From NCBI RefSeq assembly GCF_032444005.1, contig NC_091288.1, positions 214,706,001 to 214,770,000 on the forward strand: a stretch of DNA of 64,000 nt. The letters run 5' to 3'. Shown here one piece after another: positions 2,201-29,988 of this stretch. The notes below the pieces were generated by a model. That model worked only from the letters and a program-made list of their open reading frames with translations. It was not told the DNA's origin and searched no databases. The position numbers were made by a program, and so were the translations under genes. Within the stretch, counting starts at the first letter, position 1. Every line of letters starts with the position of its first letter. Origin of the DNA: Ranitomeya imitator (lineage: Eukaryota).

Positions 2201-5099
2201 TTGGCCTTGATATCACCAACGTTCCTCCAAAGGACATGTCTACTCTAGCTCCAAGTCACCAACACTCCAATAATGATGAGGCCCACTCCTTCCTTCATAA
2301 AATCCATCGTTTCACCAATGGACAGGCCTACTCTAGCTCTTTTATTAACCAATGCTCTAGTCATGGACAGGCCCATTTTCAGATCATCAACACTTTACTG
2401 ATGGACTAGTCCTCTCTGGCCTTTATGTCACTAGTGTCCTCCAATAGATAGGCTCCCTCTGGCCTACAGGTCACATACCTCCTCAGATGGACAACTCCAA
2501 GGCATAAGTTTGCAAGGCCAACTTGAAATCACATGCAACCACTCCTTTCCCCAGTGATCAGTGGTAATCTCAGTGTTTGATTTCTCTGCAGTGACACCAC
2601 AGCTCCTATTTAAATCAATGGCCTATCCATATAATGCACAGACATGCCAGGTCCGTTAGCGGAGCGATGCATTATGTAGCTGCTCTCACATTAGGTAGGG
2701 TGATGACTGAGCTGATGATTCCTCCACCACTGCCACAACCACCAGCTGTAATAATGCAGATTTACCTAGTGGGGGGTTGGAGGTGATCATATTTTCATAT
2801 CTTACTTCCTTTTACCTGCAGCCTTACACCTTCCCCCTGCTGCATCTCATCCATCGCTCTATGGGTTGTAACTGGTTAAAACTTCACCGGGTGTCATGTA
2901 ATTCAGTTATAAAAACAGCCAACGTGAACAGATATAAGGTAGTAAAGCTCACCAACAAGTAGGGTCCACAAATTGTTTGTGATGTGGATTATAAGCCCCA
3001 TCATGAGCTGGGTCATAAAAGGGAATTGAGCAGCTGGAAGCAATGAACACTAGTCTTCTTCCAATCATCAGCCAATGCAGTTTTCCCTCTGATGAGAATG
3101 GCATCCATCAGCAAATAGGATTTTCTAGTTGTTTGTCAGCGGTTCTCTTTCTCTTGAACCCTACTATCCCTTGACTATGTATTTGGTTACTGTTCCCTCC
3201 TCTCTGGTTCTGATCCGGCTTGTGCTCAATTTTCCTTCAATTTGCTCCACTGACCAGAAGCTACTCTATGGACACCACCCAGGGGCCCCACACAGTAAGG
3301 CCCAGATCTCTGTATAGATCTCACAGGGGAGCTCCTGGCTTGTGCAAAGTCTGTTTTTGGGTAACTTCTGAGTATTGGACATCCTAACTCTCAGGACTAT
3401 GTTCTTTCACAGGAACCACACAAGCACTGTGTTACTTCACAGTCTCCCACCATGAATTCAGTCCCAATTATCAATCTCTCACGCACTTTAAACTATGGGC
3501 TAATCAGGGCACACTCCACATTCCCTCACACTGACAGTAGGGCTTTCTTCTCACCTTGGTCTAGACAAGGTCGCCCACCCATCCCTAGGACATAGTACAA
3601 CTGGGCCCTACTTAGGCCTTGAGGCCAACCAGTCCTCACTTTACATTTCTACTGTTTCTCAGGGACATGGCTCTTCTTCAGACCCGAACAGGAACTAACT
3701 ATGGCCTACCACCATTACACTCCTTTACCCGGTTATCAATTCCCACAACCCCATCAGACAATCATCCATTAGACAATACTCTAAACTGACCAACAAAAGT
3801 GTGAATTTAGGCAAACACCATCAAAGTGGATGTTCTTGGGATTCAGGTTATTTCTGGGATGGGGCTTAAAAGTCTCGACTTTGACAACTAAAATGTTGGG
3901 AAGTATATAGACAGAACACTTGAAGGCCTCTTGCTTATGGCCCAATATCTGACCCACAAAATAACACAAAGACATATATACATGGTATAACTACATACTT
4001 GCCAACGATTGGCATTTGGAAGGTGGGCTTTAGCCAAAATTATTTTCTGGAATCCACTCCCCCTCCACGCCCATTCCCTACCAAGTCTCCTCCTCCAGAA
4101 ACAACAATCCTTCCTGAATCACTGACATTCTCGATGTTTCCAGTGGTTTCGTCAACACCCTTGAGATCTACCAACTCTTCCAGGAAGAACAGTTGAGTGG
4201 CCACCTCAATAACATCTTGAACTTAAAGGATCGGGCAATGGGCATTATACTGGATTCAAATAGTGGGCCCACGGTTAACCCACGGTCAAGCCAGGCCTCT
4301 CCAACAGCAGTATCAGATAACTGGCCCCTTGTTACAATGTCCATTGGAGTTTACACCCAGGTGATTACTTTTACACAATGCTGCCCCCTAATGTCATTCC
4401 AGTGTCAGTTTTCACTGAAGTCCTGGGATTCTATTTACAAACCAGCAGAAATGGAGCAATATATCTGGGTCAGGTCAGGAAGGCAGTTGTTTATAATGAT
4501 GCCTCCCTGCATGGCCTTGTAGGAGGGAGGGTTCTAAATCACATCTGCTGCCAGGTACTATGGCCTCTGGGACAATCTCTATTATTATTATTGGTGAAAT
4601 GATTGCACAAAAAGAAACAAGAACATTCCTGGAGGTCAGAGATCAAGGAAGGAGCGTGTGACCGGTGCGCAGATATCTCAGCAATTAGGTTGTAAAATAT
4701 CTGGAAATATCACAGCGAGTTAAATATTATACAGATCAGACTCGCCGCTCCGGGGGAGGGGCCGTACATTTACATCATTCTGAAGAATGGCGCCTGCCGA
4801 AGAACTGGAAGAAAGGGGAACGGGACAATGGCTATGATAGGCTTGTGGGGTGTGACCTGCAATAAGGGCCCTCACCCACCATGTGACCTTTATATGACTG
4901 GGCTGTGGTATCTTTGTCCCACTTAGGAATCAGCGGTCGCCCACTGACATTTTTCCGCACCCTAGTTCCTATATTTTTGTGGATAGCTGATTTGCTTGGC
5001 CTTTTTGCCATGTAGACGTTCTGGGGATTTTTAGCAACAGCTGTTCCATATAGGCGACTTCTCTAAACAGTAGATGGGCGTAGCTGGGTCCCACTGGTT

Positions 5100-5815
5100 G
5101 CTGCCAGTTCCGAGCTGATGGCACAGATGGACATCTTCCAATTTAGAAAATAAATAAGCAGGATGTTTCCTTGGCCGACCACTTCATCTACAGTCCTCAA
5201 TATTGCCGATTTCTTGGTGCTTCTTCACAAGACCTTGACCAGCATATCTGGAAACCCCAGTCTGCTCTGAAATCTTTGTCTAGGACAGACCTTGCTGATG
5301 CAGTATAACTACCTTGTGTCTTGATGTTGTGTTCAGTCTTGCCATGGTGGCTATTTATTGCTTGCGTTGAGAAACACGTGATGGTGTCTCCCGCAGCTTT
5401 TCTACATGCATTTGCCATGGTGTATGACCTGAGACATAAATCTGTCTTCCACAAGCTCACCCTTGTAGCAGAGTTTGTCTGTTCCTCACCCAGTTTTAAG
5501 CCTCCAACAGAGCTGTTTCTGTCTAAGTTAGTGATGAAGTTTCAACATAGATATGAAAATGATGATCATTATCACCTACTGTATCTGGTATACCTGATGA
5601 CTTGTACGCCTGACTATATTTCTACAATGTATCTACAACTGATGAAGGCGAAGGGGCAGTCACCAAATATCGAAATGCTTTATATTTCCGTTTTCTTCAT
5701 TCACTTTATTTTTAGCAACTAACAAAAGTACAAACTGTTAACACTTCTATCTGTAAAACCGTTTGCACATTGCAGCATTTTTTCCACACCTGCCTAAAAC
5801 TTTTGCACAGTACTG
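5100..5815 (-). mobile_element. Degenerate Tc1 fragment (TIR plus transposase N-terminus)
   Basis: Minus strand starts TA|CAGTACTGTGCAAAAGTTTTAGGCAGGTG; remnant translation KKHQEIGNIEDCR*SGRPRK matches the Tc1 paired-like region. Left limit approximate. Confidence 0.75.
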
Positions 5816-9568: not shown

Positions 9569-10924
9569 ATGGCATCACCTAAATCTGGGAAAGCTGACGA
9601 GATCTGCTGCAGCTACTGCGTCCAGTCCTCGGTGCCCGCCGCCAAAACGTGTGTGCACTGTGCAGCTTCAATGTGTGAAGAACACACCAAGGTCCACAAT
9701 AAGGCTGCCGAGCACATCCTGATGGACCCCACGTCTTCCATCAAGGACATGAAGTGTCCCATCCATGATAAGGTCATTGAGTTTTGCTGCTCCAAAGATG
9801 GAGCCTGTATCTGTGCGTCATGTTGTATCATTGGAGAACATCGCGGTCACAAGGTGGATTCACTCAAAGATGCCCTTGAGAAGAGAAAGGCTGGTTTTAA
9901 AGATACCATGGATGCTTTGGCTTTAGAGAGTGAAGAGAATGAGAAAAACCTTGAGAGACTATTAAACAAACGCGACAACATGAACATAGAGCTTACAGGG
10001 GTCACTGAAAGGGTGACTGCCCTTTTTCGAGATATGAATGAACAACTGGCGGCTCTGCAGGCCAGGGCGATGAGTGAGGTTGCCAGGCAGGAGAAGCAAG
10101 TAATGGTTCGGGTCAATGGTTTGGTTCAACAACTTGAGAAGAAGAAAGATGAACTCTCAAAAAAGATGAAGCACATCGAAGAGCTACAAAATATGACCAA
10201 CCCATTAACGGTGCTGAGAGGAACGACTCAAGAAGAGGTCAAGAAGCGCCGAGGCTCTCGAAAAGGCAGCGAATGTGACAATGACATCAAAGTTTCCTCG
10301 AGTATAGATGAGGGTCCCATCTCTCTCATCCTACACATAGGGCTCCTAAACTTTGCCGAGTGTCTACAAGACCTGAAAGCTTTACGTCAGTTTACAGATG
10401 TGAAGAAAACAAGCATCACGTTGGATGTGAACACAGCTCAAAGTAAAATCATCATATCCAGCGACCTTAAAACCGCTTCCCACTCTGCGGTATCTCAGAA
10501 GTATCCAGAGACCCCCGAGAGGTTTAAGTCATGTCAAGTCTTGAGCACCAATGCATTTACCTCTGGGCAACATTACTGGGAAGTGGACGTGAGTGAAGCC
10601 CCGAGGTGGATCATTGGGGTGGCATTGAAGAGCATCGCGAGGAAGGTCGCCGGGAATGACTCATTTCTTGGATACAACAACAAGTCATGGACTTTATTTT
10701 TCCAAAAGTTTCTTGGAGTCTCTCACAACAATGTGCAAAACGCAGTGGTCTCTGATTTTCCGGTGCAAGGCGTTGGGATTTACCTGGACTATGATGCCGG
10801 ATACATGTCCTTCTACCAGCTGAACCCTACCAAACACTTGCACACCTTCACCGCCACTTTCCACGAGCCTCTTCACGCCGCGTTCTACATATTTGACAAC
10901 AGTTGCATTAAAATGAAGTGTTAG
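9569..10924 (+). CDS. Intronless RING-less TRIM-like protein (B-box1, B-box2, coiled coil, PRY-SPRY), 451 aa
   Basis: Open ORF from ATG 9569; CSYC..CVHC..CEEH..H, CPIH..CCSKD..CASC..EHRGH, LDVNTAQ, GQHYWEVD..WIIGV, GIYLDYDAGYMSFY motifs. Confidence 0.93.
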   Translation: MASPKSGKADEICCSYCVQSSVPAAKTCVHCAASMCEEHTKVHNKAAEHILMDPTSSIKDMKCPIHDKVIEFCCSKDGACICASCCIIGEHRGHKVDSLKDALEKRKAGFKDTMDALALESEENEKNLERLLNKRDNMNIELTGVTERVTALFRDMNEQLAALQARAMSEVARQEKQVMVRVNGLVQQLEKKKDELSKKMKHIEELQNMTNPLTVLRGTTQEEVKKRRGSRKGSECDNDIKVSSSIDEGPISLILHIGLLNFAECLQDLKALRQFTDVKKTSITLDVNTAQSKIIISSDLKTASHSAVSQKYPETPERFKSCQVLSTNAFTSGQHYWEVDVSEAPRWIIGVALKSIARKVAGNDSFLGYNNKSWTLFFQKFLGVSHNNVQNAVVSDFPVQGVGIYLDYDAGYMSFYQLNPTKHLHTFTATFHEPLHAAFYIFDNSCIKMKC

Positions 10925-14805: not shown

Positions 14806-14872
14806 ATGGAAGGAAGGCGACGACTCATTGCTATGATCCTCCTGCTCCGGGCAGTGATCGGCGCCATTTCAG
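14806..14872 (+). CDS. CD163/SCART-like SRCR gene exon 1 (signal peptide)
   Basis: MEGRRRLIAMILLLRAVIGAIS, then phase-1 donor G|GTGAGT, compatible with the downstream SRCR exons. Confidence 0.8.
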
Positions 14873-15120
14873 GTGAGTGCCGGCACTGTAAGGTCTACAC
14901 TGCTTGCATCGCACACAGTTCCATCCCCATCACACGGAACTTTCTATAGATGTATGGAGATTTCTAGAATGGGCAACGCCAGTGCTTCTTTGGTCTTTGC
15001 GGACCTATGACCTTGCTCTGTGGGGGAGGGTATAATGACTTAGCCCCGCCCCTGCTTATCTTCTTGCTCTTCAGATTCTCAAACATGGATTATGACATTT
15101 CTCCGATTGTCTCATCCTAG

Positions 15121-15441
15121 ATGACATAGAAGAAGTGAGACTGGTGGGGGGATTGGACCCCTGTGAAGGGAGAGTGGAGGTGAATATTGGAGGAGAGTGG
15201 AGCACAATATGTGAGGATGACTGGGATATGAAGAACACAGAGGTGGTTTGTAGACAGATGGGGTGCCTCCGAACACCAGGACGCGATGCCCGGGTGTCCT
15301 CATTTGGTGCTGGAAATGGGACAGTATGGTTGACCGGTGTGACCTGTAATGGCCAAGAGGAAACTCTGAATCACTGCAAATATACCATTGAATCAGGAGA
15401 CATCTGTCACCACAAGAAAGACATCGGAGTCATCTGTGCAG
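15121..15441 (+). CDS. SRCR gene exon 2 (SRCR domain 1)
   Basis: Acceptor CATCCTAG|; VRLVGG..CEGRVEV..WSTIC..W..VVCRQMGC with 8 Cys; donor CAG|GCGAGT (GC). Confidence 0.92.
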
Positions 15442-15459
15442 GCGAGTATACAAGCATCA

Positions 15460-18400
15460 TACAAGGAGCTCCCCCTAGTGGTGGCTGCAGACAAAATATA
15501 TCTCTGTATACAGGGAGATCCCCCTAGTGGTGACTGCAGACAGGATCTTATCATGTATCTCTGTATACAGGGAGCTCCCCCTAGTGGTGGCTGCAGACTG
15601 GATCTTATCATGTATCTCTGTATACAGGGAGCTCCCCCTAGTGGTGACTGCAGACAGGATCTTATCATGTATCTCTGTATACAGGGAGCTCCCCCTAGTG
15701 GTGGCTGCAGACTGGATCTTATCATGTATCTCTGTATACAGGGAGCTCCCCTGTTATGACCTGGTGGTCAGGACAATAATGGACCTGGTGGTTAATAGCA
15801 CACGGAATGACCTGATAGTTACTGATAATATAGGACGAGCTCTGGGACGTGGGAACTCTGCTGACCGCAATCCCTAATCCTATCACGCACACTAGAAATA
15901 GCCGTGGATTGCTCCTAATGCTCCCTATGCAACACGGCACAGCCAAAGAACTAGCTAGCCCTGAAGATAGAAAAATTAAGCCTACCTTGCCTCAGAGAAA
16001 TTCCCCAAAGGAAAAGGCAGCCCCCCACATATAATGACTGTGAGTAAAGATGAAAATACAAACACAGAGATGAAATAGATTAAGCAAAGTGAGGCCCGAT
16101 TTACTGAACAGACTGAGGATAGGAAAGGTAGCTTTGCAGTCAGCACAAAAACCTACAAAAAGACCACGCAGAGGGCGCAAAAAGACCCTCCGTACCGACT
16201 CACGGTGCGGAGGCGCTCCCTCTGCGTCCCAGAGCTTCCAGCAAGCAAGACAACAATCAAAATAGCAAGCTGGACAGAAAAATAGCAAACCAGAGAAATA
16301 CAAGCAGGCACTTAGCTTCTGCTGGGAAGACAGGTCACAAGAACGATCCAGGAGTGAACTAGACCAATACTGGAACATTGACAGGTGGCATGGAGCAAAG
16401 ATCTAAGTGGAGTTAAATAGAGCAGCCAGCTAACGAATTAACCTGGTCACCTGTAGAAGGAAACTCAGAAACACCCACAGCCACCAGAGAAAGTCCATGG
16501 ACAGAACCAGCCAAAGTACCATTTATGACCACAGGAGGGAGCCCGACAACAGAATTCACAACACTCCCACTAGTGGTGACTGCAGACAGGATCTTATCAT
16601 GTATCTCTGTATACAGGGAGCTCCCCCTAGTGGTGGCTGCAGACAGGATCTTATCATATATCTCTGTATACAGGGAGCTCCCCCTAGTGGTGGCTGCAGA
16701 CAGGATCTTATCATGTATCTCTATATAGAGGGAGCTCACCCTAGTGGTGGCTGCAGACAGAATATTATCATGTATCTCTGTATACAGGGAGCTCCCCCTA
16801 GTCGTGGCTGCAGACAGGATCTTATCATATATCTCTGTATACAGGGAGCTCCCCCTAGTGGTGACTGCAGACAGGATCTTATCATGTATCTCTGTATACA
16901 GGGAGCTCCCCCTAGTGGTGACTGCAGACAGGATCTTATCATGTATCTCTGTATACAGGGCGCTCCCCCTTGTGGTGGCTGCAGACAGGATCTTATCATG
17001 TATCTCTGTATACAGGGAGCTCCCCCTAGTGGTGGCTGCAAACAGGATCTTATCATGTATCTCTGTATACAGGGCGCTCCCCCTAGTGGTGGCTGCAGAC
17101 AGAATATTATCATGTATCTCTGTATACAGGGAGCTCCCCCTAGTGGTGGCTGCAGACAGGATCTTATCATGTATCTCTGTATACAGGGAGCTCCCCCTAG
17201 TGGTGGCTGCAGACAGAATATTATAATGTATCTCTGTATACAGGGAGCTCCCCCTAGTGGTGGCTGCAGACAGGATCTTATCATGTATCTCTGTATACAG
17301 GGAGCTCCCCCTAGTGGTGACTGCAGACAGGATCTTATCATGTATCTCTGTATACAGGGCGCTCCCCCTTGTGGTGGCTGCAGACAGGATCTTATCATAT
17401 ATCTCTGTATACAGGGAGCTCCCCCTAGTGGTGGCTGCAGACAGGATCTTATCATGTATCTCTGTATACAGGGCGCTCCCCCTAGTGGTGACTGCAGACA
17501 GGATCTTATCATGTATCTCTGTATACAGGGAGCTCCCCCTAGTGGTGGCTGCAGACAGGATCTTATCATGTATCTCTGTATAGAGGGAGCTCCCCCTAGT
17601 GGTGGCTGCCGACAGAATATTGTCATGTATCTCTGTAGACAGGGAGCTTCCCCTAGTGGTGACTACAGACAGGATCTTATCATGTATCTCTGTATACAGG
17701 GAGCTCCCCCTAGTGGTGACTGCAGACAGGATGTTATCATGTATCTCTGTATACAGGGAGCTCCCCCTAGTGGTGGCTGCAGGCAGGATCTTATCACGTA
17801 TCTCTGTATACAGGGAGCTCCCCCTAGTGGTGACTGCAGACAGGATGTTATCATGTATCTCTGTATACAGGGAGCTCCCCCTAGTGGTGACTGCAGACAG
17901 GATCTTATCACGTATCTCTGTATACAGGGAGCTCCCCCTAGTGGTGGCTGCAGACAGGATCTTATCATGTATCTCTGTATGCAGGGAGCTCCCCCTAGTG
18001 GTGGCTGCAGACAGGATCTTATCATGTATCTCTGTATACAGGGAGCTCCCCCTAGTGGTGACTGCAGACAGAATCTTATCATGTACCTCTGTATACAGGG
18101 AGCACCCCCTAGTGGTGGCTGCAGACAGGATCTTATCATGTATCTCTGTATACAGGGAGCTCCCCCTAGTGGTGGCTGCAGGCACAATCTTATAATGTAT
18201 CTCGGTATGCAGGGAGCTCCCCCTAGTGGTGGCTGCAGGCACAATCTTATAATGTATCTCGGTATGCAGGGAGCTCCCCCTAGTGGTGGCTGCAGGCACA
18301 ATCTTATCATGTATCTCTGTATACAGGGAGCTCCCCCTAGTGGTGGCTGCAGACAGAATCTTATCATGTACCTCTGTATACAGGGAGCACCCCCTAGTGG

Positions 18401-19410
18401 TGGCTGCAGACAGGATCTTATCATGTATCTCTGTATACAGGGAGCTCCCCCTAGTGGTGGCTGCAGGCACAATCTTATAATGTATCTCGGTATGCAGGGA
18501 GCTCCCCCTAGTGGTGGCTGCAGGCACAATCTTATCATGTATCTCTGTATACAGGGAGCTCCCCCTAGTGGTGGCTGCAGACAGAATCTTATCATGTATC
18601 TCTGTATACAGGGCGCTCCCCCTAGTGGTGGCTGCAGGCAGGATCTTATCATGTATCTCGGTATGCAGGGAGCTCCCCCTAGTGGTGGCTGCAGACAGGA
18701 TCTTATCATGTATCTCTGTATACAGGGAGCTCCCCCTAGTGGTGGCTGCAGGCACAATCTTATAATGTATCTCGGTATGCAGGGAGCTCCCCCTAGTGGT
18801 GGCTGCAGGCACAATCTTATCATGTATCTCTGTATACAGGGAGCTCCCCCTAGTGGTGGCTGCAGACAGAATCTTATCATGTATCTCTGTATACAGGGCG
18901 CTCCCCCTAGTGGTGGCTGCAGGCAGGATCTTATCATGTATCTCGGTATACAGGGAGCACCCCCTAGTGGTGGCTGCAGACAGGATCTTATCATGTATCT
19001 CTGTATACAGGGAGCTCCCCCTAGTGGTGGCTGCAGGCACAATCTTATAATGTATCTCGGTATGCAGGGAGCTCCCCCTAGTGGTGGCTGCAGGCACAAT
19101 CTTATCATGTATCTCTGTATACAGGGAGCTCCCCCTAGTGGTGGCTGCAGACAGAATCTTATCATGTATCTCTGTATACAGGGCGCTCCCCCTAGTGGTG
19201 GCTGCAGGCAGGATCTTATCATGTATCTCGGTATGCAGGGAGCTCCCCCTAGTGGTGGCTGCAGGCACGATCTTATCATGTATCTCGGTATGCAGGGAGC
19301 TCCCCCTAGTGGTGGCTGCAGGCACAATCTTATCATGTATCTCTGTATACAGGGAGCTCCCCCTAGTGGTGGCTGCAGGCACGATCTTATCATGTGTCTC
19401 GGTATGCAGT
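15460..19410. repeat. 57-bp minisatellite (about 55 copies) filling SRCR intron 2, split by a solo LTR
   Basis: Unit CAGGGAGCTCCCCCTAGTGGTGGCTGCAGACAGGATCTTATCATGTATCTCTGTATA; 19-aa periodicity in the spurious ORFs. Confidence 0.97.
15752..16563 (-). mobile_element. Solo LTR (812 bp), probably Gypsy type
   Basis: TG...CA termini (TGTTATGA...TCACAACA); flanks CTCCCC / CTCCCA form a 6-bp duplication with one mismatch inside a repeat unit; no internal gag/pol. Orientation and family are inferred. Confidence 0.8.
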
Positions 19411-19493
19411 ATCCCTTATGGTTTTTATTATAAATGTGTTGAGTATATTTTACAACTATTACCATCTGGTGAATGTATTCCATTTGTCTACAG

Positions 19494-19814
19494 GTGAAAT
19501 GGAGGAGATACGTCTGGCTGGTGGGGACAATGAGTGTGAAGGACGAGTGGAGGTGAAGCACCGAGGACAGTGGGGCACCATGTGTGGTCTGGACTGGTAC
19601 ACCAGTAACGCCATCGTAGTCTGTAGACAGCTGGGCTGCAACATCACCAATGAGCTGCAAGTTAAAGCGGCTTCATTTGGAGCTGGAAAAGGCAAAGTCT
19701 GGCTCAGCAATGTGAAGTGTGTGGGGGATGAGGCAGCGGTGTGGGACTGTAAGCATCGAATGTGGGGAAGCAGCTCATGTAAACATCCATACGACGCTGG
19801 AGTAATCTGCTCAG
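19494..19814 (+). CDS. SRCR gene exon 3 (SRCR domain 2)
   Basis: TTTGTCTACAG| acceptor, IRLAGGDNECEGRVEV..WGTMC, 8 Cys, phase-1 donor G|GTATAA. Confidence 0.95.
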
Positions 19815-19829
19815 GTATAAAATGACTTA

Positions 19830-22800
19830 GGTTATACCAGCCATACATATATAATTATATACAGGAGATGCCCAGGTTATACCAGCTGTACATATATAAT
19901 TATATACAGGAGATGCCCAGGTTATACCAGCTGGATATATATAATTATATACAGGAGATGCCCAGGTTATACCAGCTGGATATATATAATTATATACAGG
20001 AGATGCCCAGGTTATACCAGCCGTACATATATAATTATATACAGGAGATACCCAGGTTATACCAGCTGTACATATATAATTATATACAGGAGATGCCCAG
20101 GTTATACCAGCTGGATATATATAATTATATACAGGAGATGCCCAGGTTATACCAGCCGTACATATATAATTATATACAGGAGATACCCAGGTTATACCAG
20201 CCGTACATATATAATTATATACAGGAGATGCCCAGGTTATACCAGCTGGATATATATAATTATATACAGGAGATGCCCAGGTTATACCAGCCATACATAT
20301 ATAATTATATACAGGAGATACCCAGGTTATACCAGCTGTACATATATAATTATATACAGGAGATGCCCAGGTTATACCAGCTGGATATATATAATTATAT
20401 ACAGGAGATGCCCAGGTTATACCAGCCGTACATATATAATTATATACAGGAGATACCCAGGTTATACCGGCCGTACATATATAATTATATACAGGAGATG
20501 CCCAGGTTATACCGGCTGGACATATATAATTATATACAGGAGATGCCCAGGTTATACCGGCTGTACATATATAATTATATACAGGAGATGCCCAGGTTAT
20601 ACCGGCTGTACATATATAATTATATACAGGAGGTGCCCAGGTTATACCGGCTGTACATATATAATTATATACAGGAGGTGCCCAGGTTATACCGGCTGTA
20701 CATATATAATTATATACAGGAGATGCCCAGGTTATACCGGCTGTACATATATAATTATATACAGGAGGTGCCCAGGTTATACCGGCTGTACATATATAAT
20801 TATATACAGGAGGTGCCCAGGTTATACCGGCTGTACATATATAATTATATACAGGAGGTGCCCAGGTTATACCGGCTGTACATATATAATTATATACAGG
20901 AGGTGCCCAAGTTATACCGGCTGTACATATATAATTATATACAGGAGATGCCCAGGTTATACCGGCTGTACATATATAATTATATACAGGAGGTGCCCAG
21001 GTTATACCGGCTGTACATATATAATTATATACAGGAGATACCCAGGTTATACCAGCTGTACATATATAATTATATACAGGAGATGCCCAGGTTATACCAG
21101 CTGGATATATATAATTATATACAGGAGATGCCCAGGTTATACCAGCCATACATATATAATTATATACAGGAGATACCCAGGTTATACCAGCCGTACATAT
21201 ATAATTATATACAGGAGATGCCCAGGTTATACCGGCTGGACGTATATAATTATATACAGGAGATGCCCAGGTTATACCGGCTGTACGTATATAATTATAT
21301 ACAGGAGATGCCCAGGTTATACCGGCTGTACATATATAATTATATACAGGAGATGCCCAGGTTATACCGGCTGTACATATATAATTATATACAGGAGGTG
21401 CCCAGGTTATACCGGCTGTACATATATAATTATATACAGGAGGTGCCCAGGTTATACCGGCTGTACATATATAATTATATACAGGAGGTGCCCAAGTTAT
21501 ACCGGCTGTACATATATAATTATATACAGGAGGTGCCCAGGTTATACCGGCTGTACATATATAATTATATACAGGAGGTGCCCAGGTTATACCGGCTGTA
21601 CATATATAATTATATACAGGAGATGCCCAGGTTATACCGGCTGTACATATATAATTATATACAGGAGGTTCCCAGGTTATACCGGCTGTACATATATAAT
21701 TATATACAGGAGATGCCCAGGTTATACCGGCTGTACATATATAATTATATACAGGAGATGCCCAGGTTATACCGGCTGTACATATATAATTAGATACAGG
21801 AGGAGATGCCCAGGTTATACCGGCTGTACATATATAATTATATACAGGAGATGCCCAGGTTATACCGGCTGTACATATATAATTATATACAGGAGGTGCC
21901 CAGGTTATACCGGCTGTACATATATAATTATATACAGGAGGTGCCCAGGTTATACCGGCTGTACATATATAATTATATACAGGAGGTGCCCAAGTTATAC
22001 CGGCTGTACATATATAATTATATACAGGAGATGCCCAGGTTATACCGGCTGTACATATATAATTATATACAGGAGGTGCCCAGGTTATACCGGCTGTACA
22101 TATATAATTATATACAGGAGATGCCCAGGTTATACCGGCTGTACATATATAATTATATACAGGAGGTTCCCAGGTTATACCGGCTGTACATATATAATTA
22201 TATACAGGAGATGCCCAGGTTATACCGGCTGTACATATATAATTATATACAGGAGGAGATGCCCAGGTTATACCGGCTGTACATATATAATTATATACAG
22301 GAGGAGATGCCCAGGTTATACCGGCTGTACATGTATAATTATATACAGGAGATGCCCAGGTTATACCGGCTGTACATATATAATTATATACAGGAGGTTC
22401 CCAGGTTATACCAGCTGTACATGTATAATTATATAAAGGAGATGCCCAGGTTATACCAGCTGTACATATATAATTATATACAGGAGATGCCCAGGTTATA
22501 CCAGCTGTACATGTATAATTATATACAGGAGATGCCCAGGTTATACCGGCTGTACATGTATAATTATATACAGGAGATGCCCAGGTTATACCGGCTGTAC
22601 ATATATAATTATATACAGGAGGTGCCCAGGTTATACCGGCTGTACATATATAATTATATACAGGAGATGCCCAGGTTATACCGGCTGTACATATATAATT
22701 ATATACAGGAGATGCCCAGGTTATACCAGCTGTACATATATAATTATATATAAGAGATGCCCAGGTTATACTAGCTGTACATATATAATTATATACAGGA

Positions 22801-23185
22801 GATGCCCAGGTTATACCGGCTGTACATATATAATTATATACAGGAGATGCCCAGGTTATACCAGCTGTACATATATAATTATATATAAGAGATGCCCAGG
22901 TTATACCAGCTGTACATATATAATTATATACAGGAGATGCCCAGGTTATACCGGCTGTACATATATAATTATATACAGGAGATGCCCAGGTTATACCAGC
23001 TGTACATGTATAATTATATACAGGAGATGCCCAGGTTATACCAGCTGTACATGTATAATTATATACAGGAGATGCCCAGGTTATACCGGCTGTACATATA
23101 TAATTATATACAGGAGATGCCCAGGTTATACCAGCTGTACATGTATAATTATATATAGGCGATGCCCAGGTTATACCAGCTGTAT
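19830..23185. repeat. 45-bp minisatellite (about 75 copies) filling SRCR intron 3
   Basis: Unit CAGGAGATGCCCAGGTTATACCGGCTGTACATATATAATTATATA; 15-aa periodicity. Confidence 0.98.
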
Positions 23186-23221
23186 GACCATGATAGATTT
23201 ATACACATTGGTTTCCTATAG

Positions 23222-23539
23222 GTGGTCCTCAGGAGCTGAGACTCGTGGGAGGATCCAGTGCGTGTGAGGGGAGGCTGGAGGTCCGTCACCAGGGGGAGTG
23301 GGGCACGGTCTGCGGTGACTATTGGAACGAGAAGGATGCCGCAGTTGTTTGCCGCCAGTTAGGCTGTGACGCCTCCAGTGCTGAAATCAAGGCGACATCA
23401 TTCGGGGCTGGAGCCGGGAAGGTTTTGTTCAGTAATGTCGTCTGCACTGGAGAAGAGGCAAATGTGTGGCAATGTCAGCACCAGATGTGGGGGCTTCCGT
23501 TCTGTGACCACGAGCAAGACGTTGGGGTCACGTGTGCAG
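23222..23539 (+). CDS. SRCR gene exon 4 (SRCR domain 3)
   Basis: TTTCCTATAG| acceptor, LRLVGGSSACEGRLEV..WGTVC, 8 Cys, donor G|GTAACA. Confidence 0.95.
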
Positions 23540-24249
23540 GTAACAGGCCATTATTAATACTCCGGGCAAAATTGAGGCCTGAGGAAGGGCCACCAGTCCA
23601 GCTTCTGGGAAGGCTATGGTCGTCATGCTAGATGGTGAGCAGATCACCTTTTCTTAAAGGGGAATGCGCATGAAAATGTCCCGATGTTTGGGCTTACTGC
23701 CATGTTATATGTCTTCTTTAGGCCTCGTGCATCTTTCTCTGTGTTGGACATTGTGCAACTCCTGGAATTCAAGCAGGAGAGTGATAAAACAAGAAAATTG
23801 CTTACAGTTTTTCATTAGGTAGAGCAGCAGTTTGTGCTCCAGAGCTGCTCTTCCAAAAATGTTATTGTTGGATTCAGCACTCTGCATAGACAGCAATCGA
23901 GATGGCAAAGTTCACTTCATTAGACTGAGAGCTTTGTCACCTGTCACCCAATGTGCAAAGCAAGGCAGCCGATGGCAAAGTCATCTCAACTGCTGCGCTC
24001 TGCATAGGCAACAGCAGGCGGTCACTCACTACACTGCTCCAATAAAAAGCGGAATCTGCCAACGTCACTCATCTCATAAGCAGGGATGGGGGGAGGGTGA
24101 TAAAATTCTACGCAACCACCCTTGTGCCCTCCACACACGACACCACGGACCTATGGTGATCTCAATTCTCTCGACCACCTCTTCTTAGACCTTCATTTGC
24201 TTCCATGATGACCCAACTGGTCATCCAATCATCTCATGTATGTTCACAG

Positions 24250-24588
24250 GTGAACCAGAGGAGGTCAAGCTTGTCGATGGGAAGAATGAGTGTGAGGGAC
24301 GGCTGATGGTCCGTCATCAAGGACAATGGGGCACGGTGTGTGGCTATTACTGGGGTGTCACCGAGGCCACCGTGGTTTGTAACCAACTCGGATGTGGTGG
24401 CCTCCATGAAGATGACCTACAAGCCAAGTCGGTCAACTTTGGAGCTGGAACCGGAAAGATTTGGTTGAGTCACGTCAAATGTTTTGGAGAAGAGTCGGTT
24501 ATATGGGAATGTAATCACCCGATGTGGGGAATTAATCGATGTGGACATAAAAATGACGTCGGGGTCATCTGTGAGAATAGCAGGACAG
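24250..24588 (+). CDS. SRCR gene exon 5 (SRCR domain 4)
   Basis: TTCACAG| acceptor, VKLVDGKNECEGRL..WGTVC, 8 Cys, short ENSRT extension, donor G|GTGAGT. Confidence 0.95.
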
Positions 24589-24963
24589 GTGAGTGAATTA
24601 AACGACAACTGGACAATAAAAATTCCCAGTTTTTTTATTCAAAGTTCCACAATTTCCTCAGAGTCTAATGATAAAATTCTTATTGCTTGTACCCACCACT
24701 AGTGGGAGCTCAGGAGCTTAACGCATACTGACTATCCATTGACCGCCAAAATAAAGCTCTATCCATGAGCTCTATCCGTGATTTTTATCTTTCGGGGTTT
24801 GGAGCTCTATAGAATAAAAATTTGAGATTCAACTGTACAAATCTGACATTTTTTTTGGTGGATTCATTCACATTTGACTGTGGGTGGAAACTCAGTTGGT
24901 CCAGTTGAAAATTTCTTTTTGATGTATCATTCTCATCTCTTCACGTTCTTCATTTCTTCACAG

Positions 24964-25278
24964 GTCTGAGCAGTGACTTCAGGTTAACTAACAATAGTCA
25001 GACATGTTCAGGAAGAGTAGAGATGATGGTTGCCGGTAAGTGGGGCGCTCTGTGCCGCGCGTTCTGGGACCTCCAAGCTGCCAATGTTCTTTGCAGACAA
25101 TTACAGTGCGGCAGCGCAGTATCAATCCCTGACGAGATTCATCTTGGAAAAAGTGATCTGATTTGGACAGATGAGTTTCGTTGTAAAGGTACTGAGTCCA
25201 ACCTCAGAGAATGTACCAACACAGCACTTGGGAAAAGTTTATGTCCAGACCAGGCCGCGGCAAGCATAATATGTTCAG
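24964..25278 (+). CDS. SRCR gene exon 6 (SRCR domain 5, CD163 c-type-like)
   Basis: TTCTTCACAG| acceptor; ends TALGKSLCPDQAAASIICS, like CD163 domain 6 (TALGASLCP..ASVICS); donor G|GTAGAT. Confidence 0.93.
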
Positions 25279-25373
25279 GTAGATACAAGTCATGGTACCA
25301 GACTCATTATTAATCATGAACAAGCTGGTAGAACCAATACTGACCATAAGAACCTCATTGATTTATCCAACAG

Positions 25374-25691
25374 GCATCATGGAATCTCTACGTCTGGTAG
25401 ATGGGACAAGCCACTGTGATGGAAGAGTGGAGGTCCTGCAGAACGATACCTGGGGCAGAGTGACAGACCATCAATGGGACATCAAAGATGCGCAAGTTGT
25501 GTGTACACAGCTACACTGCGGAGAAGCCATTGATTCGTTTACTATAGAAGGGCCAGCGCATGGAATGATACAATGGGACAGCATCATATGTCAAGGAAGT
25601 GAGAGTGACATAACAGAGTGCTTGAAGACCCAACCGAAGGCTTCAGATGCCTACACAGACATCAGGAGAGATGCAGGAGTCATCTGCTCAG
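25374..25691 (+). CDS. SRCR gene exon 7 (SRCR domain 6, 6 Cys)
   Basis: CCAACAG| acceptor, LRLVDGTSHCDGRVEV..DAQVVCTQLHC..DAGVICS, donor G|GTTGGA. Confidence 0.92.
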
Positions 25692-26012
25692 GTTGGACAT
25701 TTTCCCTCTTTTTTCCAATGTGGCAATATGAACCCAGTCTAGCGATGAGCAAAAATATCCGCAGGACCACGAAGACATCACTGTGAACCTCCTTTTATCT
25801 ACTGGCATACTCGGCACTTTTTCTGACTGGTGAGACAGGCACGACGTCATTGTCACGACGTTGTGTTGAACCTACTAATCAGAAGAAGAATAAGGTTCAC
25901 ATGGTTCTTGTCTGCCAGCCATGGACTACTATTATAGCTGCTGGAACTTGGTCCTGCAGATCTTTTTTGTACAATACGAACCCTGGCATATAATTCCTTT
26001 TTACCAATGCAG

Positions 26013-26321
26013 AGAGTCGAAGTGTTCAGCTGGTGGACGGCCCTGGACATTGTGCTGGGACGGTGCAGGTATATCACAGAGGACAAAGGTCCATGGTCAG
26101 TGGTGACTCGTGGACCACGACCGAAGCTGATGTCGTCTGCAAAGAGCTGAAATGCGGACGTGCCATTAATGCCACTACTGTGGTGAAGAACAGAGTCGGG
26201 AACGTATGGCTGAAGGATGTAAGATGTGCAGGACATGAAAGCAAATTACAGGAATGTCCTTCAAACTCATGGAGACAGGTGGAGTCTGGAGAAATGGAAG
26301 TTGCAAGACTTGTGTGTTCAG
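26013..26321 (+). CDS. SRCR gene exon 8 (SRCR domain 7, 6 Cys)
   Basis: AATGCAG| acceptor, VQLVDGPGHCAGTVQV..ADVVCKELKC..ARLVCS, donor G|GTAAGA. Confidence 0.92.
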
Positions 26322-27032
26322 GTAAGATGGGGAGTCCTTCTATACAGTCCTGAAGCCTAAACCAGTCCATAAGGGTTCATCTTTGAAGCCTAAAATGTGG
26401 AAATTGTCCCTGAAGGACTTATACCTTCGTGGCAAAGAGCTGAAATCAAACACCTCCTAATCTGGGTATGGACAGGGAACTATAGGATGGACTTGTCTCC
26501 TCCTCAGTGGTGGGACCATGGTTTATCTTGAGTACAGCCACGTCTTTATCCATTCCTTATCATCATTGTGAGATTTTACATTTTTGCACTCTCTCTGGTG
26601 CTATTCAAAAAAAGACGAGACCAATAAAATTAACTGTTAGAACTTGTATTATGCTCCAGAGCTGCATTCACAATTCTGCCAGTTGTTAGTTGAAACAGTC
26701 AGCAAGCGGGTCACAAGGCCTACCTCCAGCTTAGCTCAATTTCAGTAATAAATGACGGACAGAAAATTTTTCAAACAACCTGTAACTTCACGGAACGCAA
26801 TCCAACGAGAACAAGTCAGAAACGTGTAATCAGACAACCCTCACAGCTTCATTGACCTTATATAATGCAATTTTGGGGGGAATTTTTTTTACGATGTAGA
26901 AAAAAACTAAGAGAATTTATCTAGAATGTGAATCACCGGACCCCAAATAAGCAGGAATGCTGAGAGATTTCAGCTCTGAAGCAGAATGTTGGTGAAAATA
27001 ACGTCTTATGGTTTTGATTTATTTTTCGGCAG

Positions 27033-27758
27033 AGTTCCTAGACGTCCGGCTGCAGGGAGGAGATAACAGATGCAAAGGACAACTGGAAATTTACAATAAT
27101 GGAAGCTGGGGATGGGTTTGTAACAACATGATGACAACTCATGGCAAAAAAGAAAAAGTAGGCGCGCACTTACCCTGTTGCGGTGAATATCACTTTATTA
27201 GGACATATAAACAAACGGATAGCAGGGAGGGATAGGGTCAGCCACGGACAACGATCGTTTCGTGCTCTACGGCACTTCAACGGGTAGGACCGTAGAGTTT
27301 ATATGTCCTAATAAAGTGATATTCACCGCAACAGGGTAAGTGCGCGCCTACTTTTTCTTTTTTGCCATTTGGATTCTGCACACATTTTTCCTGGCAGCAG
27401 CACCCCGTTGATTCAGGTGTAAAGGATTCATACAGCCAGTATCACTTTCTGTGGTGCTAGACCGATATTATAATACGGTCACTGAGTTGGACCTTTGAGC
27501 AGTGCGGATGTGTGTTTTCTCTACTATTGGATGATGACAACTCATACCGTCTCTCTCATATGTAAGCAGCTAGGGTGCGGATCAACCGGGATATACCAGG
27601 AAGGGGCCGTTACACCTGATGAGGATGCTGCCCACTTCTGGATGGAATTTATTAAGTGTAGACATCGTGACCAATTCCTCAAGGAGTGTCCTTCAGCTGC
27701 CTGGGGCAAGAAGAAGTGCGATACTAAGGCTCAGATCCAGTGCACACTATCGACTTGA
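27033..27758 (+). CDS. SRCR gene exon 9 (SRCR domain 8, e-type-like), interrupted by an insertion
   Basis: 27033-27142 joined to 27546-27758 gives EFLDVRLQGGDNRCKGQLEIYNNGSWGWVCNNMMTTHTVSLICKQLGC...IQCTLST*. With the insertion removed, exons 1-9 total 2631 nt (877 codons); with it, the frame stops at 27235. Confidence 0.85.
27143..27530. mobile_element. Penelope-like retroelement terminal fragment (388 bp) with 15-bp TSD
   Basis: ATGATGACAACTCAT at 27128-27142 and 27531-27545; inverted repeat 27141-27212 / 27297-27368; hammerhead-like motif in the loop. Family assignment is inferred. Confidence 0.8.
27240..27296 (-). ncRNA. Degenerate minimal type-I hammerhead ribozyme motif
   Basis: Minus strand: CTACGG-tcct-AC CCGTTGA a GTGC cgtaga GCAC GAAA CGATCG TT GT-CCGTGG; stem II pairs and stem III has a palindromic loop, but the core differs from CUGANGA at two positions. 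Confidence 0.55.
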
Positions 27759-27781
27759 CATAATGCGGAAATCATATAAAG

Positions 27782-27967
27782 CAGTATGCCCCAACTTCCA
27801 TCCTCAAGGGCCACCAAGAGGTCATGTTTTCAGGATATCCTTAGTATTGCTCAGGTGATAATTGCATCACCTGGACCAGCAAGAATTCCATCACCTGTGC
27901 AATACTAAGGAAATCCTAAAAACATGACGTGTTGTTGGCTCTTGAGGGCTGGAGTTGGGAAACACTG
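27782..27967. mobile_element. Palindromic MITE (hAT-like)
   Basis: Imperfect inverted arms CAGT..CCCAACT.C..CCTCAAG / CTTGAGG.CTGGAGTTGGG..CACTG; same family as 46511-46672. Confidence 0.8.
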
Positions 27968-28212
27968 ATATAAAGAGTCCGGAATCTTAACGGGCAAGTG
28001 ATGGAGCTTACGTTTCACCATGGCCTGAGGCACACGAGCAGAACTAGGATCAAAAATTCTGATCTCCAACTACAGATATTACATCAAAAATTTATTACAC
28101 ACCAAAAACAAGTAGCATGTGTGATTCTATGTGAGGTCCACATAATGTTTACATGTATTGAGCATAAATAAATATATGCAGAAGATAACCAGATTATATG
28201 CACATATATAAT

Positions 28213-29988
28213 TACACACATGGACAAAATTGTTGGTACCTTCAATATCAGTAATGAGAATCAGACTTTGCTTTTTGAATTTTGGCTCAACAGAAAAATA
28301 ATAAACGAATGACTCCGGCCTGGACAAAAATGGTGGACCCTTTAACTTAATATTTTGTTGTCCAACCTTTTGAGACAATCACTGCAATCAAACGATTTCT
28401 GCAACTATCGATGAGACTTCAGCACCTCTCCACAGGTATTTTTGTATACTCCTCATGAGCAGACTCCTCCAGCTAAGATTTTAAGGGTGGCATCTCCAGA
28501 CTGAAGGTCTTAGCTCCTTCCACAGATGTTCTGTAGGGTTTAGATCAGGGCTCCTAGAATCCACTGTAGGACAGTCCAAAACTTTGCTCTTACCCATTCT
28601 TGGATGGTTTTAGCTGTGTTTTGGGTCATTATTCTGCTGACCTACAACTCAGACCGAGCTTTGTGACACAGCGGCCGGAAAGCAGAGGGGTGACGTCACC
28701 GCTCTGCTTTCCGGCTGACCGACGCTCACAGCCAGAGCAGGAGGAGTGCAGAGCACAGCGCTGGAGGACAGACAGCTGTAGGTAAGTATGTAGTGTTTGT
28801 TTTTTTTACTTTTAGGATGGTAACCAGGGTAAACATCGGGTTACTAAGCGCGACCCTGCGCTTAGTTACCCGATGTTTACCCTGGTTACCAGTGAAGACA
28901 TCGCTGAATCGGTGTCACACACGCCGATTCAGCGATGTCTGCGGGGAGTCCAGCGACCAAATAAAGTTCTGGACTTTCTTCCCCGACCAGCGACAGCACA
29001 GCAGGATCCTGATCGCTGCTGCCTGTCACACTGGACGATATCGCTAGCGAGGACGCTCAACGTCACGGATCGCTAGCGATATCGTCTAGTGTGACGGTAC
29101 CTTAAGTGTGACGGTACCTTAAGTCTGGTGTTCTTTTCTTTGTAGGTTTCATATTTGTTTCTGTAAATATAGAGCTGATGTGAGGTCGAAAAGCTCCAGG
29201 TTTGTCCCATCTGTCCAAAGGACATTTTCCCAGAAATGTTGTGGCTTGTCAACATGAATTTTGGCAATTTCCAGTTTTACTTTCTTTACGATTTTCTTTC
29301 TTGGTTTCTTCCTCGGTTGTCTTCCATGAAGTCCACTTGGCCAAGACAGCAATAGATGATGCGACCTGACAGCGATGGACCTTGACCTTGGAGTTCACCT
29401 CTAATCTCTCTTGCAATTGTTCTGGGATCCTGGGGTACCATTCATATTGTCCGTTTCTTCAATTTGTCATCAATTTTTCTCTTGGGGGACACATCCAGGT
29501 TGGTCGGTTACAGCCCCATAGACCTTAAAACTTCTGAATAAGATGTACAACTGTAGTAACGGGAACATCACGTTATTTGAAGAAGTCTTATAGCCTTTAC
29601 CCTTAACATGTTTGTCTATAATTTTCTCTCTCTCTCTGGCTTTCTTTGCTCCATGTTTAGTGTCGTAATCACAATGATACCAAACAGCACAGTAACTACT
29701 TTTCACCCTGTAAATAGGCAACGGACTGATTACAAGTTTATAGACATCCGTTCTGCTAATTGCAGGACACACGTTAGTTTTACATGTCCCTACAGTAAAA
29801 TTATTTTCAATCTGTCCTAGGGGCACCATCAATTTTGTCCAGGCCAATTTCAATAGTTTTGTTTTTTTTTTCTGTTGAACCATACTTCAAAAACAAACTT
29901 TGATTCTCATTATTGATATTCAGTAAATTTTAATCGAAAATTACTTTTGTGAGTTATTTCAGCAACAATTCTTTTTTTCCTTACTGTA
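28213..29988 (-). mobile_element. Degenerate Tc1 element with both sub-terminal inverted repeats
   Basis: About 28240-28340 is the inverted match of about 29820-29930; transposase remnants HVDKPQHFWENVLWTDGTNLELF. Ends approximate. Confidence 0.85.
28665..29122. mobile_element. TTAA-ended MITE fragment nested in the Tc1, terminus duplicated
   Basis: Internal palindromic segments (GTAACCAGGGTAAACATCGGG..CCCGATGTTTACCCTGGTTAC); ends with GTGTGACGGTACCTTAA twice. Confidence 0.75.

What the first reader, a model, noticed from the sequence alone, without database searches (positions are those of the whole stretch)
27033..27545. Young retroelement insertion with a perfect 15-bp TSD breaks the last SRCR exon
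ATGATGACAACTCAT flanks a 388-bp insert, and removing the insert plus one TSD restores an 8-Cys SRCR domain in frame. With the insert, translation adds GKKEKVGAHLPCCGEYHFIRTYKQTDSREG and stops at 27235. Perfect TSDs and a perfect 72-bp inverted repeat imply recency, possibly a segregating allele. If this is the last exon, the mRNA would be expected to escape NMD and carry a strong hairpin.
Basis: partly seen in the sequence, partly recalled or inferred. Interest (0 to 1): 0.7.

Follow-up and report, generated by a model that had tools for sequence, protein, structure and literature searches.

The report
Young Penelope insertion truncates frog gene
A 388-base stub of a recently multiplying jumping gene sits in the last coding exon of a poison frog's scavenger-receptor-type gene and is predicted to cut off the protein's last domain, while other frogs carry the intact gene, so it is a real but likely rare and ordinary knockout-type allele.

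Summary
Observation confirmed: perfect 15-bp TSD, 388-bp insert, 72-bp inverted repeat, new stop at 27233-27235. The insert is two head-to-head pieces of the pseudo-LTR of an endonuclease-bearing Penelope-like element (Neptune-type linker). Both pieces are 100% identical to full-length copies, which differ by 0-5 of 3831 bases. TSD length and both outer ends are the family's usual ones. The host is a single-copy, otherwise open 9-exon gene for a predicted secreted 8-SRCR protein of a Ranitomeya frog (876 aa empty; 836 aa filled). The empty site stands in 7 of 8 sequencing runs laid: one DNA run, six spliced contigs, one from a second species. No listed contig bridges a filled junction. So the allele is segregating or private, not fixed and not merely spliced out. 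NMD escape is plausible but untested: no filled transcript was seen, and the insert brings a splice donor 100 nt behind the stop and an AATAAA, both predicted buried in the hairpin. The scan has noted such Penelope stubs in shark and ray genomes. Side points: this family's one-sided tail is about 165 nt (30-40 reported), and its hammerhead-like motif has two core changes.

The parts
14806..14872 (+). Exon 1 of the host gene (start codon, hydrophobic signal-peptide-like stretch)
   Evidence: gapless match to P0001
15121..15441 (+). Exon 2, SRCR1 (GC-AG donor)
19494..19814 (+). Exon 3, SRCR2
23222..23539 (+). Exon 4, SRCR3
24250..24588 (+). Exon 5, SRCR4
   Evidence: splice joint 24584-24960 in X3, X5
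24964..25278 (+). Exon 6, SRCR5
   Evidence: joints
25374..25691 (+). Exon 7, SRCR6 (6 Cys)
26013..26321 (+). Exon 8, SRCR7 (6 Cys)
   Evidence: joint 26318-27030 in X3, X5
27033..27142 (+). 5' part of exon 9 (last coding exon): first 36 residues of SRCR8, with Cys1 and Cys2
27128..27142 (.). Left copy of the 15-bp target-site duplication
27143..27285 (-). Inverted arm: parent pseudo-LTR +4..+146 (short 3' end class), 143 nt, 100% identical
27233..27235 (+). New stop codon TAG after 30 insert-coded residues
27245..27285 (-). Hammerhead-like motif of the element, antisense to the host mRNA, stem I shortened
   Evidence: no Rfam match
27286..27296 (+). 11-nt junction: pseudo-LTR start +1..+6 and +19..+23, i.e. 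the direct arm with two internal deletions at 1-2-nt microhomologies; removes the sense hammerhead copy
   Evidence: read by eye
27297..27530 (+). Direct arm: parent +77..+310 (long 3' end class, includes the ~165-nt tail), 234 nt, 100% identical
27310..27315 (+). AATAAA carried by the element, predicted paired in the hairpin
27333..27341 (+). Consensus 5' splice donor carried by the element (GT at 27336), 100 nt behind the new stop, predicted paired in the hairpin
27531..27545 (.). Right copy of the target-site duplication
27546..27758 (+). Rest of SRCR8 (70 codons, 6 Cys) and normal stop; 3' UTR in the filled allele
28167..28172 (+). First host AATAAA behind the normal stop (candidate poly(A) signal)

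Best explanation
The 388-base insert is a head-to-head stub of the terminal repeat of a recently multiplying Penelope-like retroelement, flanked by a 15-base target duplication and absent from the same site in seven other sequencing runs; it puts a stop into the last coding exon of a single-copy 8-SRCR gene and is predicted to give a 7-domain protein with a likely misfolded tail from an mRNA that would likely escape nonsense-mediated decay. Shown: identity to the family, TSD, end positions, open host frame, empty allele. Inferred mechanism: the element's RT-endonuclease nicked both strands 15 bases apart; each 3' end primed reverse transcription at one of two fixed start sites in the element RNA (about +146 and +310), helped by 2-nt and 1-nt matches to the target; both copies ran to the RNA's 5' end (+1, 25-31 nt behind a TATA box) and were joined head to head, the long arm losing two short pieces. 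Inferred consequence: 806 native residues plus 30 new ones; SRCR8 keeps 2 of 8 cysteines without partners and gains 2 more. The allele is most likely a rare, mildly harmful or neutral variant on one haplotype.
For: Family: 31 other places 100% identical over insert 155-388 among 40 candidates scored of 788; 242 exact copies of a 42-nt motif, reversed control 0; four 3831-bp units differ by 0, 2, 3, 5 bases from L031; ORF2 797 aa, RT whose best solved match is telomerase RT (E 2.8e-4), VVY..CxC..YIG and CxxCxxC motifs. TSD 14-18 bp in 17 of 22 loci, window included; 13-18 bp in 10 of 20 further loci. In those 20 loci 11 inverted insertions have both outer ends resolved: 10 pair a +143..+157 end with a +302..+330 end, 1 pairs +71 with +306, none long-long or short-short; 7 of 20 are 370-480-bp double stubs. 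Empty allele: X1 (DNA, depth 9.9 against 9.3 in the flank), X3, X5, X4, X7, X9, X15; X11 does not cover the site. Single copy: 1 DNA match; next protein matches 36-41%. Other 8 exons open, orthologues 68-97% identical. PMC11167929 (parts 1-2 of 4 read): a Penelope protein cleaves and extends both strands and starts internally at two sites that define the tail.
Against: The filled allele was seen only in the assembly; no read set of that animal was identified, so zygosity and frequency are unknown, and contigs drop rare variants. No filled transcript or protein was observed. Pfam RVT_1 is below its cut-off (22.3 against 29.6 bits) and Pfam finds no GIY-YIG domain: the endonuclease call rests on motifs. 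BLAST end positions are uncertain by several bases. The sample was picked by likeness to the insert and the sample by an intact 5' motif, so both are biased. 9 of 20 loci gave no credible TSD. PMC11167929 saw no difference in start site between the two strands in vitro, which does not explain the strict long-short pairing.
Confidence: 0.85

Rival explanations
1. Same insertion, different fate of the RNA: the element's own donor (27336) splices to a downstream AG and leaves an exon junction 100 nt behind the stop, triggering NMD; or its AATAAA ends the mRNA early; or the 72-bp duplex is edited, retained or diced. The allele is then a null or hypomorph, not a truncated protein.
For: Donor and AATAAA lie in host-sense orientation; candidate AG acceptors follow at parent positions equal to window 27397 and 27416; Penelope introns are spliced in Drosophila (PMC2377424, passages). 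The 50-55-nt NMD rule is recalled knowledge.
Against: Both signals are paired with probability 1.0 in the predicted hairpin, and the left arm is transcribed first. No joint starting at 27336 is among the 2 joints listed, and element-derived contigs of X4 and X7 run unspliced over 27340-27531 and 27316-27531; these come from other copies.
Confidence: 0.3
2. The filled allele is an assembly artefact or a somatic event in the sequenced animal.
For: 0 of 8 laid runs list a contig bridging a filled junction (the piece tables are cut).
Against: TSD length, both end positions and terminal microhomologies match the family's habits; the 11-nt junction matches none of the other loci mapped; a mis-join would not create these. 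The assembly haplotype also differs from all seven empty contigs at 27692 (synonymous) and from X1, X3, X5 at three 3' UTR sites, as a distinct haplotype would.
Confidence: 0.05
3. The truncation is useful: a 7-domain secreted form, or one with free cysteines for cross-linking, kept by selection.
For: Seven whole domains remain; SRCR number varies among orthologue models (P0005 lacks one internal domain).
Against: SRCR8 is kept with 8 Cys in 6 of 6 orthologues covering it; none of 7 informative runs shows the allele; the tail is antisense element sequence without change from the parent.
Confidence: 0.04
4. A LINE-1-type twin-primed insertion or a MITE.
For: 15-bp TSD and a 5' inversion resemble L1 (recalled); a long inverted repeat resembles a MITE.
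Against: No poly(A) tail; the inverted repeat is not terminal on the right; every base traces to the pseudo-LTR of the tandem RT/GIY-YIG element.
Confidence: 0.01

Closest known systems
Inverted-pLTR insertions of endonuclease-bearing Penelope-like elements (Pen2a_Av, D. virilis Penelope; PMC3846280, PMC8557442, passages read)
   Same: Tandem units with pseudo-LTRs, head-to-head inverted 5'-truncated copy, tail on one end only, TSD, TATA box near the pLTR start, microhomology deletions.
   Different: Tail about 165 nt instead of 30-40; TSD mostly 14-18 bp instead of 8-10 in the rotifer examples; the stub holds no ORF sequence beyond the tail; it lies in a coding exon of an otherwise open gene.
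Neptune/Nematis-type PLEs (PMC8557442, passages)
   Same: C-terminal GIY-YIG-like domain with CxC between the two motifs, CX2CxxC linker, separate upstream ORF1 overlapping ORF2 in the -1 frame with slippery heptamers.
   Different: No RT tree was built, so the clade is assigned by motif only; no (TA)n target bias in most TSDs printed.
PAc (Poseidon of Anolis), in-vitro study PMC11167929 (parts 1-2 of 4)
   Same: Two fixed internal start sites defining the tail; both strands primed; hammerhead not needed for insertion.
   Different: Start sites are adjacent in PAc and about 165 nt apart here; PAc's hammerhead keeps a working core, this one reads C3-C4-G5-U6.
Group B SRCR proteins (CD163/M130, WC1, DMBT1, SSC4D/SSC5D; features recalled)
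   Same: One exon per domain, phase-1 introns, 8 Cys in six of eight domains; databases label the orthologues 'M130-like'.
   Different: Eight domains, no transmembrane segment (highest hydropathy 1.07 outside the signal stretch), so not CD163 proper; function not found in print.

Membership tests
EN+ Penelope-like elements | Telomerase-related reverse transcriptase in the parent ORF | tested here: met
   Best PDB match telomerase RT, E 2.8e-4; Pfam RVT_1 E 1.2e-4, below cut-off
EN+ Penelope-like elements | C-terminal GIY-YIG endonuclease with CCHH motif (two Cys between GIY and YIG) | tested here: inconclusive
   Motifs VVY..CPC..YIG, later R..EH and H seen by eye; no Pfam match
EN+ Penelope-like elements | Tandem or partial-tandem units forming pseudo-LTRs | tested here: met
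   Period 3831 in 4 of 4 long loci
EN+ Penelope-like elements | Inverted 5'-truncated copy joined head to head | tested here: met
   Window insert; 18 of 22 loci (biased sample); 11 fully resolved of 20
EN+ Penelope-like elements | Tail on one end only | tested here: met
   11 of 11 resolved inverted insertions carry the long end on one side only
EN+ Penelope-like elements | Tail length 30-40 bp (typical, not strictly defining) | tested here: not met
   Ends cluster at +142..+157 and +302..+330, about 165 nt apart
EN+ Penelope-like elements | Hammerhead motif in the pseudo-LTR | tested here: inconclusive
   Stems I and II, GAAAC box, extra base before stem II and palindromic stem III present; two copies cofold through the palindrome; the older copy L008 swaps the palindrome centre and keeps it palindromic. 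But core U4 and A6 are C and U, Rfam gives nothing, monomer fold z -0.3; cleavage untested
EN+ Penelope-like elements | Spliceosomal intron near the pLTR, retained in copies | tested here: inconclusive
   Consensus donor present; acceptor not fixed; no spliced joint listed
Neptune/Nematis clades | CX2-5CxxC linker between RT and EN | tested here: met
   CGGCNFC motif in ORF2; definition from PMC8557442
Neptune/Nematis clades | Placement in an RT tree | not tested
   No named reference RTs were fetched
Group B SRCR domain | 8 Cys, one exon | tested here: met
   Empty allele: 8 Cys in exon 9; filled allele keeps 2
CD163 proper | Nine SRCR domains, transmembrane segment, cytoplasmic tail (recalled) | tested here: not met
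   Eight domains, no TM, orthologues end after SRCR8
Polymorphic retroelement insertion | Empty site with one TSD copy in other individuals | tested here: met
   7 of 8 runs
Polymorphic retroelement insertion | Filled site seen in a second individual or in raw reads | tested here: inconclusive
   Only contigs were served; none listed bridges a filled junction

The most novel reading that the evidence does not exclude
This stub marks a Penelope family that is still jumping in poison frogs and knocking out genes, and that works differently from the described ones: it primes the two target strands from two fixed RNA sites 165 nt apart, always one of each, and has let its hammerhead core decay in all young copies. 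It would be a ready vertebrate model for asymmetric double priming and for ribozyme-free Penelope transposition, with a natural loss-of-domain allele of an unstudied secreted SRCR protein as a by-product.
Probability: 0.35. Interest if true: 0.5.

Novelty: new member of a known kind. Interest (0 to 1): 0.3.

Why it matters
It is direct evidence (filled and empty alleles, intact parent copies at 99.9% identity) that a Penelope-like family is a current mutagen in a 6-Gb frog genome. It warns that the reference carries a broken allele of a gene that is intact and spliced in other animals, which can mislead annotation: one database model (P0007) skips this exon and ends in repeat-derived sequence. 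Exonic retroelement insertions are a well-known kind of event. The family's long tail, fixed 14-15-bp stagger and altered hammerhead core are the parts a Penelope specialist could use.

Tried and rejected
Rfam scan of 27000-27700 at E up to 10: no match. Canonical-core hammerhead pattern with this family's palindrome: 1 match in the genome, not followed up. Monomer fold of the motif no better than shuffles. ESM Atlas gave no result for ORF2. Pfam: nothing for ORF1 or the endonuclease region. Run search: no RNA holder listed on record; spliced contigs were nevertheless found in six runs on laying. X11 has no cover at the site: uninformative. 8 of 24 listed runs were laid; X2 (same sample as X1) and the small-share runs were not. 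A paralogue as the source of the empty contigs was rejected. Precise splicing as their source was rejected: the skip stands in a DNA run and has AT..GG ends. The second 15-nt repeat at 26139/26432 as a degenerate exon copy: not supported. The idea that stubs stop at the hammerhead cut site (predicted after +40): only L005 (both arms) and perhaps L003 of 17 stubs; 13 of 17 have an arm ending at -2..+5 (biased sample). One search had two exon boundaries off by one; repeated. Paper searches for a Penelope insertion in a vertebrate exon, for Neptune tail and TSD lengths and for a secreted frog SRCR/CD163-like protein listed nothing on point; only listings were seen, and subscription journals are not covered. 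Supplementary figures of PMC4209133, which show amphibian hammerhead variants, were not opened and may already hold this core.

Full report
Observation. The 15-nt repeat at 27128-27142 and 27531-27545 is exact, the insert is 388 bp, and the inverted repeat 27141-27212 / 27297-27368 is 72 nt at 100%. With the insert the frame stops at 27233-27235 after 30 new residues; without it the exon codes for a whole SRCR domain with 8 cysteines. One other exact 15-mer pair lies in the same 3 kb and looks like chance, so the TSD needed outside proof.

Host gene. Eight SRCR exons and a signal-type exon lie at 14806-27758. All nine join in frame: 876 aa empty, 836 aa filled (806 shared, 30 new, 70 lost), no transmembrane segment. 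A search with SRCR7 gave 7 proteins among 28 candidates, all from frogs; the best is 97% identical over 875 residues and is named from a Ranitomeya species. Six of the seven cover SRCR8, keep its cysteines and end right after it; the seventh (P0007) is a partial model that skips this exon and ends in repeat sequence matching window 28816-29044. The locus is single-copy in G000. The 'M130-like' label is automatic; the protein lacks the membrane anchor of CD163 (recalled).

Empty allele. Of 24 runs listed I laid 8. Seven show a contig that skips exactly 403 bases with 15 letters fitting both sides: X1 (DNA), X3, X4, X9, X5, X7 and X15, the last from a second organism; X11 does not cover the site. 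In the six non-DNA runs the same contig is joined to exon 8, so the empty allele is transcribed and spliced. The skip stands in DNA and has AT..GG ends, so it is not splicing. No listed piece bridges a filled junction, but contigs drop rare variants and the piece tables are cut. All seven carry C at 27692 where the assembly has T, so the filled allele sits on its own haplotype. RNA contigs run on unspliced past the normal stop (X3 to 27850), which supports 'last exon'.

The element. The insert matched 31 other places at 100% over bases 155-388 among 40 candidates scored of 788. Long loci show tandem units of 3831 bp with an ORF1 of 330 aa and an ORF2 of 797 aa; four units differ from L031 by 0-5 bases, and a 42-nt piece occurs 242 times exactly. 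At 1-3e-9 substitutions per site per year (rate quoted in PMC12822217, passages) that spread means under about 0.7 million years; this is my estimate. ORF2's best solved relative is telomerase RT. It has CxC between GIY-like and YIG motifs and a CxxCxxC linker, the marks of Neptune/Nematis types in PMC8557442 (passages); Pfam support is weak and no tree was built.

Anatomy of the stub. Counting from the pseudo-LTR start (+1 = L031 2035, 25-31 nt behind a TATA box), the insert is +146..+4 inverted, an 11-nt junction made of +1..+6 and +19..+23, then +77..+310 direct; both arms are letter-identical to the parent. This is the family's routine product. TSDs are 14-18 bp in 17 of 22 loci (22 of the 34 element loci then held, picked because both ends could lie within the fetched flank) and 13-18 bp in 10 of 20 more (further chromosome-1 hits from the list, 9 without a credible TSD). 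In the second set 7 of 20 are 370-480-bp double stubs, and all 11 inverted insertions with two resolved ends have one long end (+302..+330) and one shorter end (10 at +143..+157, 1 at +71). Head-to-head arms, one-sided tail and TSD are described for Penelope elements (PMC3846280, PMC8557442, passages), with tails of 30-40 bp; here the tail is about 165 nt.

Mechanism. Inferred, after PMC11167929 (parts 1-2 of 4 read): nicks on both strands 15 bp apart, each end priming at one of two fixed internal sites with 1-2 nt of microhomology, copying to the RNA's 5' end, head-to-head joining with short template jumps. The pseudo-LTR holds a hammerhead-like motif with the traits listed in PMC4209133 (parts 1-2 of 4 read: extra base before stem II, palindromic stem III, dimer fold), but with C and U at core positions 4 and 6; Rfam misses it. 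In the host mRNA only its antisense copy remains, so it should not cut the message.

Consequence. The pre-mRNA is predicted to fold a 72-bp stem (z -15.3, 0 of 100 shuffles). The stop lies in the loop of the last exon, so NMD escape is the default expectation (rule recalled). The element adds a sense donor 100 nt behind the stop and a sense AATAAA, both paired at probability 1.0 in the model. If either is used the allele becomes a null or a shortened mRNA. If translated, SRCR8 keeps 2 of 8 cysteines and gains 2, which likely misfolds and may hold the protein in the ER (inference). None of this was observed.

Comparison and verdict. Earlier notes of this scan describe similar stubs in shark and ray introns and one pseudogene exon (none by sequence). 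What differs here is a coding hit in a live gene with the empty allele shown and intact parents at hand. Searches (listings only) showed no report of this insertion, family or gene. Of bioRxiv 10.64898/2026.07.22.740005 I read part 1 of 5 (abstract, introduction, start of methods); of PMC2377424, passages. Verdict: real, young, polymorphic or private; a new member of a known kind; interest 0.3.

Noticed in passing
L031:2036-2078 (window 27245-27285, - strand): Hammerhead-like motif with two core changes (U4 to C, A6 to U) fixed in 242 exact copies; the older copy L008 has a palindrome-preserving double change in stem III. Either a decayed ribozyme in an active family or an undescribed variant.
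   Followed up: partly
L031:2309-3301 and 3166-5676: ORF1 (330 aa, no Pfam match) overlaps ORF2 in the -1 frame with in-frame slippery heptamers at 3208 and 3262: candidate ribosomal frameshift.
   Followed up: partly
L031:2150 to about 2440: Both reverse-transcription start sites (+146, +310) would lie inside the element's putative 5' intron if the acceptor is the AG at 2410 or 2439 before the ATG at 2462; then only unspliced RNA could be copied, a simple reason for intron retention. Acceptor not determined.
   Followed up: no
window 27777-27972: MITE-like element with 83-nt arms in the gene's 3' UTR, at very high copy (summed contig depth about 250,000 in X1); gives a second hairpin in the same mRNA.
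   Followed up: no
window 28674-29044: Repeat with three short hairpins; database model P0007 splices into it instead of the true last exon.
   Followed up: partly
window 9569-10924 (+): Single open frame of 451 codons with B-box, coiled coil, PRY and SPRY domains (TRIM-like), 4 kb upstream of the SRCR gene; no RING seen in this frame.
   Followed up: partly
window 15441/15442: Exon 2 of the host gene ends at a GC-AG intron donor.
   Followed up: no
window 15499-19409, 19829-23184, 35923-63971: Long minisatellite arrays (57-, 45-, 30-, 86-, 20/70/90- and 24-bp units) fill two introns and most of the 3' half of the window.
   Followed up: no
L042 (G000:C2:85736003): Single place with a canonical hammerhead core next to the same stem-III palindrome; possibly another Penelope family.
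   Followed up: no
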